A stretch of DNA of 64,000 nt from Escherichia coli (GTDB taxonomy: Bacteria; Pseudomonadota; Gammaproteobacteria; Enterobacterales; Enterobacteriaceae), in assembly GCF_030013205.1 (NCBI RefSeq), contig NZ_CP122648.1; one strand, written 5' to 3'. The notes under the pieces were generated by a model that was not told the origin of the DNA, made no database searches, and saw only the letters and a program-made list of their open reading frames with translations. How positions within the stretch are numbered: position 1 is the first letter of the stretch; every line of letters begins with the position of its first letter. This document shows, piece after piece, positions 3,844 to 11,077 of this stretch. Both the position numbers and the translations under genes were made by a program.

Positions 3844-5493
3844 TTAACCGCGCCACGCTTTATAGCGGTTAATCAGACCATTGGTCGAGCTATCGTGGCT
3901 GCTGATTTCTTTATCATCTTTCAGCTCTGGCAGAATACGGTTCGCCAGTTGTTTACCCAGCTCCACGCCCCACTGGTCGAAGGTGAAGATGTTCAGAATC
4001 ACGCCCTGAGTAAAGATTTTGTGCTCATACAGCGCAATCAACGCACCCAGGCTGAACGGAGTGATTTCGCGCAGCAGGATGGAGTTGGTCGGGCGGTTAC
4101 CTTCGAACACTTTGAACGGCACCACGTAGTCAAGCGTTGCCGGATCTTTACCCTGATCACGATATTCCTGCTCAACCACTTCGCGGGATTTACCAAACGC
4201 CAGCGCTTCGGTCTGAGCAAAGAAGTTAGACAGCAGTTTCTGGTGATGATCAGAGAGCGGGTTATGGGTGATAGCCGGGGCGATGAAATCGCACGGTACC
4301 ATTTTGGTTCCCTGGTGGATCAGCTGGTAGAACGCGTGCTGACCGTTAGTGCCTGGTTCACCCCAGATAATCGGGCCAGTCTGGTAATTCACGACGTTAC
4401 CGTTACGGTCAACGTACTTACCGTTGGACTCCATATTGCCCTGCTGGAAGTACGCCGCGAAACGGTGCATATACTGGTCATACGGCAGAATCGCTTCAGT
4501 TTCCGCGCCAAAGAAATTGTTGTACCAGATGCCAATCAGCGCCAGTAGTACAGGCAGGTTTTTCTCGGCAGGCGTGGTGGAGAAATGCTTGTCCATCGCG
4601 TGTGCGCCAGAAAGCAGTTCAACGAAGTTATCAAAGCCGATGGAGAGAACAATCGACAGGCCAATCGCTGACCACAAAGAGTAACGGCCGCCAACCCAGT
4701 CCCAGAACTCGAACATGTTGGCAGTATCAATACCAAACTCGCCAACGGCTTTGGCATTGGTTGAGAGCGCCGCAAAGTGTTTTGCAACGTGTTTTTCATC
4801 ACCTGCCGCTTTCAGGAACCAGTCACGCGCGCTATGGGCGTTGGTCATAGTTTCCTGAGTGGTGAAGGTTTTAGAGGCTACCAGGAACAGCGTGGTTTCC
4901 GGGTTTACTTTTTTCAGCACTTCCGCGATGTGAGTCCCATCGACGTTAGAAACAAAGTGCATGTTCAGGTGATTTTTGTACGGACGCAGTGCTTCGGTCA
5001 CCATGTACGGGCCGAGGTCAGAACCACCGATCCCGATGTTCACTACGTCAGTGATTGCTTTGCCGGTATAACCCTTCCACTCACCGGAAATAATCGCTTC
5101 CGAGAAGGTTTTCATCTTCTCCAGCACCGCGTTGACTTCTGGCATTACGTCTTTGCCATCAACCAGAATCGGGGTATTGCTACGGTTACGCAGCGCTACG
5201 TGCAGCACGGCGCGGTTTTCAGTGCGGTTGATCTTCTCGCCAGAGAACATCGACTTAATCGCGCCCGCCAGATCGCACTCTTTCGCCAGATCTTGTAATT
5301 TCGCCAGCGTCTCTTCAGTGATGCGGTTTTTGGAGTAATCCACCAGCATCTGATCGTCGAAGGTTGCGGAGAACTTAGAAAAACGATCGCCGTCTTTAGC
5401 AAAAAGATCGGCGATCGTAACGTCTTTCATTTCATCGAAGTGTTTCTGTAGTGCCTGCCAGGCAGCGGTCTGCGTTGGATTGATGTTTTTCAT
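3844..5493 (-). CDS. pgi: Glucose-6-phosphate isomerase
   Basis: ORF 3844-5499; translation [25 protein letters not shown]... is the phosphoglucose isomerase family; 549 aa from third Met. Confidence 0.95.
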
Positions 5494-8765: not shown

Positions 8766-9074
8766 AAATTCTCCTGTAAAACGCGGAATATACCGTACCT
8801 CTTAGCGGGGAAAAACAGGGTTATGCGGCAACGTCGAAATTAAATGTGATCTGCCACGCCTTTTATCACAAAAGTGTCTCCGGAAGTACGATGCAAATTT
8901 GCCTGGCAAAATAAGGATAATCAACATATTACGAATCGCTGCACACCTGTGCTGATGACTACTACGCAGAGAAACAAATGTGCAAGAGAAAGCGCTATTT
9001 CTCCCCATGCAAAGAGTGAAAAATCGCTTTGAAAGGCCCTCATGATGGGGTTATATCAGATCAAGCGGTGAGAA

Positions 9075-9100
9075 AGCGTATTTGCACAAATGTGCAGAAC
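9075..9100. promoter_or_regulatory. Inverted repeat TGCACA-AA-TGTGCA just upstream of sorC; candidate operator
   Basis: Palindrome at 9083-9096, 17 bp before the sorC ATG; related CAAATGTGCA motif at 8975-8984. Confidence 0.3.
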
Positions 9101-9112
9101 CAGGAGGCGGCA

Positions 9113-10060
9113 ATGGAAAACAGTGACGATATCCGTTTGATTGTGAAGATTGCCCAACTCTATTACGAACAGGATATGACGCAGGCGCAAATCGCGCGCG
9201 AACTGGGTATTTACCGCACCACCATCAGCCGCTTGCTTAAACGAGGCCGCGATCAGGGAATTGTCACCATCGCCATCAACTATGACTACAACGAAAATCT
9301 CTGGCTGGAGCAGCAACTGAAGCAAAAGTTTGGCCTGAAAGACGTTGTGGTGGTGTCGGGAAATGATGAGGATGAAGAGACTCAACTGGCGATGATGGGG
9401 TTACACGGCGCGCAACTGCTGGATCGCTTGCTGGAGCCTGGCGATATTGTCGGTTTTTCCTGGGGTCGCGCGGTGAGCGCACTGGTTGAAAACTTGCCGC
9501 AGGCGGGGCAATCGCGGCAGTTAATCTGCGTACCAATTATTGGCGGACCGTCCGGTAAACTCGAAAGCCGCTATCACGTAAACACATTAACCTACAGCGC
9601 GGCAGCGAAGCTGAAAGGGGAATCGCATCTCGCGGATTTTCCGGCTCTGCTGGATAACCCATTAATTCGTAATGGGATCATGCAGTCTCAGCACTTTAAA
9701 ACCATCTCTGCCTACTGGGATAATCTGGATGTCGCCCTGGTGGGAATTGGCTCACCGGCCATTCGCGACGGCGCTAACTGGCATGCGTTTTATGGTGGTG
9801 AAGAGAGTGACGACCTGAATGCCCGCCAGGTTGCTGGCGATATTTGCTCGCGCTTTTATGATATTCACGGCGCAATGGTTGAAACGAATATGAGCGAAAA
9901 AACACTCTCTATCGAAATGAATAAATTAAAGCAGGCGCGGTATTCCATTGGCATTGCCATGAGTGAAGAAAAATACAGCGGAATTGTTGGTGCACTGCGT
10001 GGAAAATATATTAATTGTCTGGTAACGAATAGCAGCACAGCTGAACTATTACTGAAATAA
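9113..10060 (+). CDS. sorC: SorC-family transcriptional regulator of the sorbose operon
   Basis: ORF 9029-10060; start set at MENSDDIRL preceded by AGGAGG; N-terminal HTH (MTQAQIARELGIYRTTISRLLKRGR) plus sugar-binding domain; 315 aa. Confidence 0.8.
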   Translation: MENSDDIRLIVKIAQLYYEQDMTQAQIARELGIYRTTISRLLKRGRDQGIVTIAINYDYNENLWLEQQLKQKFGLKDVVVVSGNDEDEETQLAMMGLHGAQLLDRLLEPGDIVGFSWGRAVSALVENLPQAGQSRQLICVPIIGGPSGKLESRYHVNTLTYSAAAKLKGESHLADFPALLDNPLIRNGIMQSQHFKTISAYWDNLDVALVGIGSPAIRDGANWHAFYGGEESDDLNARQVAGDICSRFYDIHGAMVETNMSEKTLSIEMNKLKQARYSIGIAMSEEKYSGIVGALRGKYINCLVTNSSTAELLLK

Positions 10061-10291
10061 AAATCTTCCCGATGTTTACCGTAATAAAAATTACGGCGGG
10101 TCCCTATTATCTAAAATCAGGAGTCTGTTATGCAAACGTGGTTAAATTTGCAGGATAAAATCATTATCGTCACCGGCGGCGCATCCGGTATTGGTCTGGC
10201 GATTGTAGAGGAATTATTAGCACAAGGCGCAAACGTACAGATGGTCGATATTCACGGTGGCGATGGTCAATATGAAGGTCATAAAGGCTAT

Positions 10292-10300
10292 CAGTTTTGG
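10292..10300. repeat. IS1 target-site duplication, left copy (cagttttgg)
   Basis: 9 bp identical to 11069-11077, immediately flanking the IS1 inverted repeats. Confidence 0.85.
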
Positions 10301-10355
10301 GGTGATGCTGCCAACTTACTGATTTAGTGTATGATGGTGTTTTTGAGGTGCTCCA

Positions 10356-10631
10356 GTGGCTTCTGTTTCTATCAGCTGTCCCTCCTGTTCAGCTACTGAC
10401 GGGGTGGTGCGTAACGGCAAAAGCACCGCCGGACATCAGCGCTATCTCTGCTCTCACTGCCGTAAAACATGGCAACTACAGTTCACTTACGCCGCCTCTC
10501 AGCCCGGTACGCACCAGAAAATCATTGATATGGCCATGAATGGCGTCGGATGTCGCGCCAGTGCACGCATTATTGGCGTTGGCCTCAACACGATTTTCCG
10601 CCACTTAAAAAACTCAGGCCGCAGTCGGTAA
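10356..10631 (+). CDS. insA: IS1 InsA (transposition inhibitor / N-terminal part of InsAB' transposase)
   Basis: 91-aa [46 protein letters not shown]... with zinc-finger cysteines. Confidence 0.95.
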
Positions 10632-11053
10632 CCTCGCGCATACAACCGGGCAGTGATGTGATTGTCTGCGCTGAAATGGACGAACAGTGGGGCTACGTCG
10701 GTGCTAAATCACGTCAGCGCTGGCTGTTTTACGCGTATGACAGGATGCGGAGGACGGTTGTGGCGCACGTCTTCGGTGAACGCACTCTGGCCACACTGGA
10801 GCGTCTTCTGAGCCTGCTGTCGGCCTTTGAGGTCGTGGTATGGATGACGGATGGCTGGCCGCTGTATGAATCACGCCTGAAGGGAAAGCTGCACGTTATC
10901 AGCAAGCGTTATACTCAGCGCATTGAGCGGCATAACCTGAATCTGAGACAACATCTGGCAAGGCTGGGACGGAAGTCACTGTCGTTCTCAAAATCGGTGG
11001 AGCTGCATGACAAGGTCACCGGGCATTATCTGAACATAAAACACTATCAGTAA
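10550..11053 (+). CDS. insB: IS1 InsB (catalytic part of the InsAB' transposase made by -1 frameshift at TTAAAAAACTC)
   Basis: 167-aa ORF in the -1 frame overlapping the insA 3' end; slippery A-run present near 10600. Confidence 0.9.
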
Positions 11054-11068
11054 GTTGGAGTCATTACC

Positions 11069-11077
11069 CAGTTTTGG
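11069..11077. repeat. IS1 target-site duplication, right copy (cagttttgg)
   Basis: Identical to 10292-10300. Confidence 0.85.

What the first reader, a model, noticed from the sequence alone, without database searches (positions are those of the whole stretch)
10061..10129. Small perfect hairpin between sorC and sorD
ccgtaat-aaaa-attacgg forms a 7-bp perfect stem in the 69-bp sorC-sorD spacer, with no following U-run. It could be an mRNA processing or stability element or a second operator within the operon.
Basis: seen in the sequence. Interest (0 to 1): 0.15.

Follow-up and report, generated by a model that had tools for sequence, protein, structure and literature searches.

The report
Conserved mRNA hairpin between sorC and sorD
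The small hairpin between the regulator gene and the first enzyme gene of the E. coli sorbose operon is kept, at the same position and through compensating base changes, in at least a dozen genera of enteric bacteria, so it is a real RNA structure in the operon's messenger RNA, most likely one that sets how much regulator is made relative to enzyme.

Summary
CCGTAAT-AAAA-ATTACGG (10079-10096) is a perfect 7-bp hairpin in the 69-nt sorC-sorD spacer, extended by CCCG/CGGG (10068-10071/10097-10100), with no U-run.

In E. coli alone it is unremarkable: fold z = -1.15, and 2.2% of spacer shuffles give such a hairpin. Comparison makes it real.
- In 34 distinct sorC-sorD spacers from Enterobacterales, a hairpin sits 16-21 nt after the sorC stop and 32-37 nt before the sorD AUG.
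- There are 28 different core sequences; 99.4% of core cells are paired, and three pairs show double compensatory changes.
- Six G·U cells against one A·C, and lower + strand folding energies, place it in the sense mRNA.

Next to it is a sequence-conserved single-stranded motif, YUUAYCUrAA (10106-10115).

The spacer has no promoter or terminator consensus, no Rfam match and no second copy. It does not resemble the conserved palindromes upstream of sorC, so a second operator is not supported.

Best reading (inferred, not shown): an intercistronic processing/stability hairpin at the regulator/enzyme boundary. The closest parallel is cggR-gapA in B. subtilis, also headed by a SorC-family regulator.

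It is a new member of a known kind and of modest interest. In this strain sorD is itself broken by IS1.

The parts
9113..10060 (+). sorC (SorC-family regulator, first gene of the sor operon), stop codon included
   Evidence: ORF list; RefSeq annotation of the same gene in L001 as a 948-bp 'sugar-binding transcriptional regulator'; 100% match to E. coli K_EC180
10061..10067 (+). A/U-rich, unconserved single-stranded stretch right after the sorC stop; proposed endonuclease entry region (inferred)
   Evidence: 5' flank has 0.44 mean pairwise identity, below third-codon positions at 0.52-0.55; 53-85% A+U; RNWUU-type motifs in 26 of 34 sequences, but none in this E. coli sequence
10068..10071 (+). 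Outer helix, 5' arm (CCCG)
   Evidence: MFE fold; an outer helix of at least 4 pairs encloses the core in 28 of 34 orthologous spacers, with lineage-specific sequences
10072..10078 (+). 7-nt bulge AUGUUUA between the outer and core helices
   Evidence: MFE fold
10079..10085 (+). Core stem, 5' arm CCGUAAU
   Evidence: Sequence; covariation of the 5 shared core pairs: 99.4% paired, 3 pairs with double changes
10086..10089 (+). Loop AAAA (not conserved in sequence or length, 3-6 nt across genera)
   Evidence: Alignments A1 and A3; loop identity 0.31
10090..10096 (+). Core stem, 3' arm AUUACGG
   Evidence: Sequence
10097..10100 (+). Outer helix, 3' arm (CGGG)
10101..10116 (+). Pyrimidine-rich single-stranded segment UCCCUAUUAUCUAAAA holding the sequence-conserved motif YUUAYCUrAA (10106-10115)
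   Evidence: Mean pairwise identity 0.80 for the motif, against 0.52-0.55 at third-codon positions and 0.85-0.88 at first and second positions; nearly invariant columns in A1 and A3
10119..10123 (+). Shine-Dalgarno sequence AGGAG of sorD
   Evidence: Sequence; conserved in the alignment
10130..10300 (+). First 57 codons of sorD (sorbitol-6-phosphate dehydrogenase, SDR family), cut by IS1
10301..11068 (.). IS1 inserted in sorD (context, not part of the element); 9-bp target duplication cagttttgg at 10292-10300 and 11069-11077
   Evidence: BLAST annotation 'IS1 family transposase'; junctions compared with the intact allele L001

Best explanation
The hairpin is a selected secondary structure in the polycistronic sorCDFBAME mRNA (sense strand). 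It is a two-tier stem-loop of about -9 to -16 kcal/mol, placed at a fixed distance between the sorC stop and the sorD ribosome-binding site. Most likely it is a selective-processing-and-stabilisation element at the boundary between the regulator gene and the structural genes. The proposed steps are these. The transcript from the sorC promoter reads through the spacer. An endonuclease, RNase E in enterobacteria, cuts in the unconserved A/U-rich single strand between the sorC stop and the stem. The hairpin then sits at or near the 5' end of the sorDFBAME fragment and protects it, and also keeps the pyrimidine-rich leader and Shine-Dalgarno sequence of sorD free. The sorC fragment has no 3' hairpin and is degraded. 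The result would be little regulator and much enzyme from one promoter. Shown here: the structure exists, is conserved by compensatory change, lies on the mRNA strand, holds a fixed position, is single-copy, and is neither a promoter nor a canonical terminator. Inferred: the cleavage, its position, the enzyme, and the direction of stabilisation.
For: (1) 34 distinct spacers from Escherichia, Pseudocitrobacter, Citrobacter, Klebsiella, Raoultella, Enterobacter, Mangrovibacter, Cedecea, Serratia, Pantoea, Erwinia and Entomohabitans all carry a hairpin at the same place with 28 different core sequences. (2) RNAalifold predicts only this stem. The 5-bp core is 99.4% paired, against 51% or less with slid partners and 87.7% in shuffles (0 of 500); pairs G-C/A-U, C-G/U-A and G-C/A-U show double changes. 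The 6-bp version is 94.4% paired. (3) Strand: 6 G·U cells against 1 A·C; mean + strand MFE is -12.5 against -10.8 kcal/mol for the - strand, with + more stable in 22 of 34 (Wilcoxon p = 0.006, not corrected for phylogeny). (4) Total stability looks buffered: weak A/U cores (Escherichia, Citrobacter) have strong G/C outer helices, and strong CGCAGC cores have weak or no outer helix. (5) Position: the core starts 16-21 nt after the stop and ends 32-37 nt before the AUG. (6) The loop and 5' flank are at or below neutral identity, while the 3' flank motif is near coding-level identity. (7) No sigma-70 promoter or terminator consensus in the spacer of E. coli, K. oxytoca or Citrobacter. Published transcript log2 fold changes are sorC 6.89/5.55 and sorD 7.42/5.60, so transcription reads through; protein log2 fold changes are much larger for SorD (11.23/8.51) than for SorC (7.29/5.79) (PMC12817954 Table S10). 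In the same paper's Northern blots the sorC and sorE probes light up at different growth phases. (8) Precedent: in B. subtilis the SorC-family regulator CggR is also the first gene of its operon. The mRNA is cut at the end of cggR, and a downstream hairpin stabilises the gapA product; an AU-rich stretch just 3' of that hairpin also matters (bioRxiv 10.1101/2023.03.12.532304). E. coli uses RNase E plus stem-loops to set operon stoichiometry (PMC10667835). (9) A second, stronger intercistronic hairpin without a U-run lies between sorM and sorE.
Against: No experimental 5' or 3' end, half-life or coverage data exist for this junction. The strict RNase E motif RNWUU occurs in the 5' flank of 26 of 34 sequences but not in the E. 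coli sequence of this window. The motif is too degenerate to weigh much in either direction. The direction of protection is open: E. coli has no 5'-3' exonuclease, and in the E. coli study hairpins mainly protect the upstream gene from 3' exonucleases. The compensatory changes trace to only a handful of independent events, and the sequences are related, so the shuffle statistics overstate significance. The unequal protein fold changes could come from imputation or translation efficiency alone. The conserved 3' motif is not explained by a pure stability model.
Confidence: 0.45

Rival explanations
1. Translation-initiation insulator or enhancer for sorD. The hairpin locks up the spacer nucleotides just outside the 5' edge of the 30S footprint. 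This keeps the conserved pyrimidine-rich leader (a possible ribosomal protein S1 landing site), the Shine-Dalgarno sequence and the AUG single-stranded whatever happens in sorC. No cleavage is needed. This reading can coexist with the best explanation.
For: The fixed distance of 32-37 nt from the core to the AUG. The sequence-conserved YUUAYCUrAA motif between hairpin and Shine-Dalgarno sequence, at 0.80 identity. In silico, shuffling the hairpin nucleotides raises the opening energy of positions -20 to +5 of sorD from 6.0 to 6.65 kcal/mol; wild type is easier to open in 24 of 34 (p = 0.0006). SorD shows one of the largest protein inductions.
Against: The predicted effect is small (0.65 kcal/mol) and has the opposite sign in E. 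coli itself (7.56 against 6.63). The test is purely thermodynamic and the sequences are not independent. Binding of S1 to this leader has not been tested.
Confidence: 0.25
2. 3' exonuclease barrier for sorC. Cleavage occurs downstream of the hairpin, in the pyrimidine-rich leader. The stem-loop then protects a monocistronic sorC mRNA from PNPase and RNase II, keeping the autoregulator expressed after the structural part has decayed.
For: This is the arrangement validated in E. coli reporters: stem-loop, then an RNase E site, then the next gene (PMC10667835). The sorC probe signal appears earlier than the sorE signal in published Northern blots. The core lies 16-21 nt past the stop, out of reach of a terminating ribosome.
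Against: A stability of -9 to -16 kcal/mol is near the weak (-9.3) rather than the strong (-25.4) stem-loop tested in that study. RNWUU motifs are rare in the 3' flank: 7 of 34 sequences, and five to six times lower density than in the 5' flank. Raising the regulator relative to the enzymes runs against the usual logic of regulator-first operons.
Confidence: 0.12
3. Weak intrinsic terminator or attenuator. The full two-tier hairpin followed by CC(C)UUUAUCU stops a fraction of transcripts after sorC.
For: In the Klebsiella-type sequences the outer helix ends in GGGAUC and is followed by CCUUUAUCU, which has 5 U in the 8 nt beginning 2 nt after the stem.
Against: No U-run directly abuts the stem: 2-3 C come first. 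In E. coli the tract is UCCCUAUUAUCU. The terminator scans find nothing in three genera. Induction ratios are the same or slightly higher downstream of the spacer. What is conserved is UUAUCU, not a U-tract.
Confidence: 0.07
4. DNA-level dyad: a second operator for SorC or another transcription factor inside the operon.
For: It is an inverted repeat inside an operon whose regulator is both activator and repressor. SorC-family proteins bind palindromes and repeats, and the CggR operator lies downstream of its transcription start (PMC11229326).
Against: The half-site sequence is not conserved (CGTAAT, CATAA, CGCAAT, CGCAGC, CGCAGG and others), while the pairing is. Six G·U cells would be mismatched half-sites. 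The - strand folds worse. The spacer does not resemble the strongly sequence-conserved palindromes upstream of sorC and shares no 8-mers with them beyond chance. The spacing between the arms varies.
Confidence: 0.04
5. Specific recognition site for a trans-acting RNA-binding protein or small RNA (see the novel case), or no function at all (a neutral leftover).
For: The conserved single-stranded motif next to a structure is the usual anatomy of such sites. There is no Rfam family.
Against: The loop is free to vary, so there is no loop-specific recognition. No partner was identified. 'No function' is contradicted by compensatory changes and fixed placement across genera in which neighbouring synonymous sites are about 50% diverged.
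Confidence: 0.07

Closest known systems
cggR-gapA processing site and downstream stabiliser hairpin of the Bacillus subtilis gapA operon (Ludwig 2001 and Meinken 2003, as cited and re-tested in bioRxiv 10.1101/2023.03.12.532304)
   Same: A SorC-family regulator gene comes first in a sugar-metabolism operon. A stem-loop sits at the boundary to the first enzyme gene, and an A/U-rich single strand follows the hairpin. The purpose is low regulator and high enzyme from one promoter. In the mutational scan G·U-preserving mutations are tolerated, and here G·U variants occur naturally.
   Different: In B. subtilis the cut lies inside the 3' end of cggR, is made by RNase Y with the Y-complex, and the hairpin blocks the 5'-3' exonuclease RNase J1. 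Enterobacteria have neither enzyme, so RNase E and 5'-end-dependent decay would have to play those parts. There is no sequence similarity. No cleavage has been demonstrated for sor.
Selective RNA processing and stabilisation (SRPS) elements of E. coli operons, i.e. an intercistronic stem-loop plus an RNase E site (PMC10667835); classical examples from my own knowledge are malE-malF REP and papB-papA
   Same: An intercistronic position in a polycistronic mRNA; a hairpin without a U-tract; flanking A/U-rich single strands; a presumed effect on the stoichiometry of operon products.
   Different: The validated E. coli cases protect the upstream gene from 3' exonucleases with more stable stems. REP elements are multi-copy with a consensus sequence, whereas this hairpin is single-copy and specific to the sor operon. 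The direction of protection here is unknown.
5'-terminal stabiliser stem-loops such as the ompA 5' UTR (Emory, Bouvet and Belasco 1992; own knowledge, not checked here)
   Same: A modest stem-loop a short distance upstream of a ribosome-binding site, where any stable pairing suffices and the sequence is free to vary.
   Different: Those lie at a primary 5' end. Here a processing event would be needed to place the hairpin at a 5' end.
Rho-independent terminators
   Same: A stem-loop after a stop codon, on the coding strand.
   Different: No U-tract abuts the stem. Downstream genes are co-induced to the same extent. The scans are negative.

Membership tests
Intercistronic processing/stabiliser hairpin (SRPS; cggR-gapA type) | Lies in a transcribed intercistronic spacer of a polycistronic mRNA, on the sense strand | tested here: met
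   The 69-nt spacer lies between sorC and sorD. sorC and sorD are co-induced. G·U cells and folding energies favour the + strand.
Intercistronic processing/stabiliser hairpin (SRPS; cggR-gapA type) | Stem-loop maintained by selection (pairing conserved, sequence free) | tested here: met
   99.4% of core cells are paired, 3 pairs show double changes, and there are 28 core sequences. An outer helix is present in 28 of 34.
Intercistronic processing/stabiliser hairpin (SRPS; cggR-gapA type) | Endonucleolytic cleavage next to the hairpin | not testable with these tools
   Only a weak proxy is available: RNWUU motifs occur in the 5' flank of 26 of 34 sequences but not in this E. coli sequence.
Intercistronic processing/stabiliser hairpin (SRPS; cggR-gapA type) | Different stability or abundance of the mRNA segments on the two sides | not testable with these tools
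   Only indirect hints exist: the sorC and sorE probes peak at different growth phases, and protein fold changes are unequal.
Rho-independent terminator | G+C-rich stem directly followed by a U-tract | tested here: not met
   The stem is followed by CGGGUCCCUAUUAUCU. Scans are negative in three genera.
Rho-independent terminator | Drop in expression of downstream genes | tested here: not met
   Published transcript log2 fold changes are sorC 6.89/5.55 and sorD 7.42/5.60. These are fold changes only, not absolute levels.
SorC (or other transcription factor) operator | Half-site sequence conserved and related to the operator motifs at the sor promoter | tested here: not met
   The arms vary while the pairing is kept. 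The spacer shares no motif with the conserved upstream palindromes such as CACAAAAGTG and TGCACAAATGTGCA.
SorC (or other transcription factor) operator | Protein binding to the DNA | not testable with these tools
   This needs a gel-shift assay or ChIP.
REP/BIME or other repeated palindromic element | Many copies per genome with a family consensus | tested here: not met
   Covariance model R1 finds exactly one hit per sor locus and none elsewhere in the 64-kb window or in 49 loci.
Any described RNA family (Rfam 15) | Match to a curated covariance model | tested here: not met
   Only three chance-level hits (E = 1.7-4.6), none on the hairpin.
RAT/BglG-type antiterminator target (considered because this is a PTS operon) | Hairpin overlapping a terminator, and a PRD-containing antiterminator gene in the system | tested here: not met
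   There is no terminator downstream. The operon encodes only SorC, SorD, the four EII-Sor subunits and SorE. The slight sequence resemblance to RAT was recalled from memory only and was not tested.

The most novel reading that the evidence does not exclude
The two-tier stem-loop and the adjacent sequence-conserved single strand YUUAYCUrAA together form a recognition module for a specific trans-acting factor. This could be an RNA-binding protein or a small RNA conserved across Enterobacterales. It would give the sorbose operon a separate post-transcriptional switch on sorDFBAME, for example tying it to PTS or carbon status, independent of SorC.
Probability: 0.08. Interest if true: 0.6.

Novelty: new member of a known kind. 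Interest (0 to 1): 0.3.

Why it matters
It turns an unremarkable-looking hairpin into a structure backed by covariation in a clinically relevant accessory operon. sor is present in 2,866 of 5,426 complete E. coli genomes and is enriched in high-risk lineages (PMC12817954). The finding suggests that operons headed by a SorC-family regulator in Gram-negative and Gram-positive bacteria solved the same problem the same way: little regulator and much enzyme from one promoter, using a hairpin at the regulator/enzyme junction. It also gives a compact natural part, with many natural stem variants of graded stability, for testing how RNase E and hairpins set operon stoichiometry. It would not change any general view of gene regulation.

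Tried and rejected
- Chance: rejected on comparative grounds, although the single E. coli sequence is not significant by itself.
- Terminator: no U-tract and negative scans.
- Internal sigma-70 promoter: TTTACC and TATTAT are 24 bp apart, and scans are negative in three genera.
- Operator: the spacer shares no motif with the sorC upstream palindromes.
- Minus-strand RNA: worse energies, and A·C in place of G·U.
- Known RNA family: none in Rfam.
- Repeated element: single copy.
- Long-range pairing of UUUAUCU with GGAUAAA in sorD codons 8-10: seen by eye in E. coli, but RNAalifold on the extended alignment does not keep it.
- Small ORF in the spacer (ATG at 10072): not conserved, and no Shine-Dalgarno sequence precedes it (read).
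- Conservation in more distant SorC homologues: the Firmicute, Chloroflexi and Kluyvera loci have other neighbours and no such hairpin.
- Variation within E. coli: uninformative, since 2,824 of 2,866 copies are at least 99% identical.
- Literature: four searches found no description of the hairpin. The 1990-1994 Lengeler-lab papers on the Klebsiella sor operon are not in the searchable library, so I could not check whether the hairpin was mentioned there.
- By-eye checks from remembered consensus sequences, which are not tests and gave no convincing match: Spot 42 and SgrS pairing, CsrA GGA sites, IHF, Cra, Mlc and sigma-54 sites, and the RAT motif.
- RNase E motif count and TIR-accessibility modelling: both lean the expected way across the family, but not in the E. 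coli sequence itself, so I count them as weak.

Full report
**What is there.** The window is an E. coli chromosome segment, 100% identical over the 2.4 kb query (window 9000-11400) to strain K_EC180. It carries the L-sorbose operon sorCDFBAME between rluF and pepE.
- CCGTAAT (10079-10085), AAAA and ATTACGG (10090-10096) form a perfect 7-bp hairpin.
- The minimum-energy fold adds CCCG (10068-10071) paired with CGGG (10097-10100) across a 7-nt bulge.
- The stem is followed by CGGGTCCCTATTATCT, not a U-run, and the consensus scan sees no terminator or promoter in the spacer.

**Is it more than chance?** Not from this sequence alone.
- The spacer's folding z-score is -1.15.
- 2.2% of shuffled spacers contain a perfect hairpin of at least 7 bp.
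- The window holds 63 such hairpins, against about 22 expected.

**Comparative evidence.** A scan of one genome per species with SorC returned orthologous sor loci from about a dozen genera of Enterobacterales. These yielded 34 distinct sorC-sorD spacers of 65-76 nt.
- Every spacer has a hairpin at the same place. The core starts 16-21 nt after the sorC stop and ends 32-37 nt before the sorD AUG, and there are 28 different core sequences.
- Examples of the stem are CGUAAU/AUUACG (Escherichia, Pseudocitrobacter), CAUAA/UUAUG (Citrobacter), CGCAAU/AUUGCG (a metagenome-assembled Enterobacteriaceae genome), CGCAGC/GCUGCG (Klebsiella, Raoultella and others), CGCAGA/UCUGCG (Pantoea) and CGCAGG/CCUGCG (Entomohabitans).
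- RNAalifold predicts this stem and nothing else, even when 60 nt of sorD are added.
- On alignment A3, 169 of 170 cells of the five shared core pairs are standard pairs (99.4%). With the 3' partner slid the figure is 51% or less, and in column shuffles it is 87.7% (0 of 500 reach the observed value).
- Three of the five pairs show changes on both sides, in 33 cells. A sixth pair brings the figure to 94.4%.

The caveat is that these changes go back to a handful of events in related lineages, so the shuffle statistics are generous.

**Which strand, and RNA or DNA?** The non-Watson-Crick cells are six G·U and one A·C. They lie in at least five separate lineages: Escherichia sp. MOD1, P. vendiensis, Citrobacter, Serratia and Erwinia. 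On the opposite strand, or in a DNA dyad, these would be mismatches.
- Folding both strands of all 34 hairpin regions gives -12.5 kcal/mol for the + strand and -10.8 for the - strand. The + strand is more stable in 22 of 34 (Wilcoxon p = 0.006, not corrected for phylogeny).
- In 28 of 34 sequences an outer helix of at least 4 pairs encloses the core, against 56% when the 5' flank is shuffled.
- The outer helix is lineage-specific: CCCG/CGGG, GAUCCUG/CAGGAUC, GAUUUC/GGGAUC (which has U·G pairs) and UUUAUUU/GAAUAAA.
- The outer helix is strong where the core is A/U-rich and weak or absent where the core is CGCAGC. The hairpin with its 14-nt flanks therefore stays at about -9 to -16.5 kcal/mol, apart from one sequence whose core was clipped by the alignment (-6.3). 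This looks like selection on overall stability.

**What else is conserved?** All figures are.

| Region | Mean pairwise identity |
|---|---|
| Third codon positions of flanking sorC / sorD | 0.52 / 0.55 |
| First and second codon positions | 0.85-0.88 |
| 5' flank of the hairpin | 0.44 |
| Loop | 0.31 |
| Stem arms | 0.72 |
| Single-stranded YUUAYCUrAA just 3' of the hairpin (10106-10115) | 0.80 |

There are thus two constrained parts. One is a structure. The other is a short pyrimidine-rich sequence between the structure and the Shine-Dalgarno sequence.

**What it is not.**
- It is not in Rfam.
- It is not a repeated element. A covariance model of the element finds one copy per sor locus and none elsewhere in the window or in 49 loci.
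- The spacers of E. coli, K. oxytoca and Citrobacter contain no sigma-70 promoter or terminator consensus.
- It does not look like an operator. The sorC upstream region carries palindromes conserved in sequence across all genera: CACAAAAGTG, GCACA-N2-TGTGC, AAATGTGCA, and TGCACAAATGTGCA next to the sorC Shine-Dalgarno sequence. These are the likely SorC operators, and the spacer shares nothing with them beyond chance.
- More distant SorC homologues (Kluyvera paralogue, Firmicutes, Chloroflexi) sit in other contexts without the hairpin.
- Within E. coli the junction is nearly invariant: 2,824 of 2,866 copies are at least 99% identical.

**External data.** I found no paper describing the hairpin. 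A 2025 study of the E. coli sor operon (PMC12817954) gives three relevant results.
- Transcript log2 fold changes on sorbose are 6.89/5.55 for sorC and 7.42/5.60 for sorD, so transcription reads through and both sides are co-regulated.
- Protein log2 fold changes are 7.29/5.79 for SorC and 11.23/8.51 for SorD.
- Northern probes for sorC and sorE gave signals at different growth phases.

These are hints of post-transcriptional uncoupling, not proof.

**How it most likely works.** The best-fitting known mechanism is selective RNA processing and stabilisation.
- The closest precedent is the B. subtilis gapA operon. CggR, itself a SorC-family regulator, is also the first gene there.
- In that operon the mRNA is cut at the end of cggR, the regulator part decays, and a hairpin at the new 5' end stabilises the gapA mRNA. 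An AU-rich stretch directly 3' of that hairpin also contributes to cleavage.
- In E. coli, RNase E cleavage combined with stem-loops sets operon stoichiometry.

For sor I therefore propose cleavage by RNase E in the unconserved A/U-rich strand between the sorC stop and the stem. The hairpin would then cap and protect the sorDFBAME fragment and keep its leader open. This is inference.
- Weak support: RNWUU-type motifs are five to six times denser in the 5' flank than in the 3' flank (26 of 34 sequences against 7 of 34), but this E. coli sequence has none.
- The stability of -9 to -16 kcal/mol is closer to the weak than to the strong 3' barrier tested in E. coli. This mildly favours a 5' role over a 3' role.

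**Rivals.**
- *Translation insulator for sorD.* The fixed 32-37 nt spacing fits. Modelled opening energy of the ribosome-binding site is 0.65 kcal/mol lower with the native hairpin (24 of 34, p = 0.0006), but the effect is reversed in E. coli itself.
- *3' barrier stabilising sorC.*
- *Weak attenuator.*
- *DNA operator.*
- *Site for an unknown trans-acting factor.*

The first rival can coexist with the main model.

**Verdict.** The hairpin is real, selected and on the mRNA. The "second operator" reading is not supported. It is a new member of a known kind of element and of modest interest. In this particular strain an IS1 (10301-11068, 9-bp target duplication) splits sorD 171 nt downstream. 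The operon is therefore probably non-functional here, whatever the hairpin does.

Noticed in passing
window 10301-11068 (target duplication 10292-10300 and 11069-11077): A 768-bp IS1 is inserted after codon 57 of sorD, with a 9-bp direct duplication cagttttgg. Only 24 of 5,426 complete E. coli genomes match at least 80% of the 2.4-kb query that includes this insertion. The sor operon of this strain is therefore probably inactive or polar.
   Followed up: yes
window 8867-8876, 8941-8952, 8975-8984, 9083-9096: The sorC upstream region carries palindromes of the type CACA-N-TGTG: CACAAAAGTG, GCACACCTGTGC, CAAATGTGCA, and TGCACAAATGTGCA directly 5' of the sorC Shine-Dalgarno sequence. They are conserved in sequence from Escherichia to Serratia and Pantoea. 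They are likely SorC operators and/or CRP-like sites, and the last one overlaps the sorC translation start region.
   Followed up: partly
window 14329-14350 (sorM-sorE spacer 14323-14373): A second intercistronic hairpin, GCCCCGGCA-CGAC-TGCCGGGGC, has a 9-bp G/C stem. The spacer folds at -24 kcal/mol (z = -3.5), and no U-run follows. Cross-genus conservation could not be checked because the fetched loci stop short of it.
   Followed up: partly
window 12625-12689 (sorB-sorA spacer): This 65-nt spacer has a moderate predicted structure (-11.8 kcal/mol). Unlike the sorC-sorD spacer, its length varies among genera: the gap between the two ORFs is 26-186 nt.
   Followed up: partly
window 15617-15661: Right after the sorE stop, a short frame reads LCMSLAGRRGNFAT*. 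This matches the N-terminus of the shikimate-dehydrogenase-like gene that follows the SorC paralogue in Kluyvera (MTMINRDTQLCMSLAGRPGNFGT). It appears to be a gene remnant. PMC12817954 reports an intact sdhL next to sor only in ST648.
   Followed up: partly
E. coli YZ22PE165, NZ_CP139130.1 4362336-4362428 (hit H60): This genome matches the junction only from the base corresponding to window 10068 onward, with a second place elsewhere in the record. This suggests a rearrangement or insertion exactly at the 5' foot of the hairpin.
   Followed up: no
L033-L035 (Kluyvera), 3921-3940: A 70%-identical SorC paralogue is followed after only 14 nt, with no hairpin, by the sdhL-like gene. The hairpin therefore belongs to the sorC-sorD junction, not to SorC-family genes in general.
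   Followed up: yes
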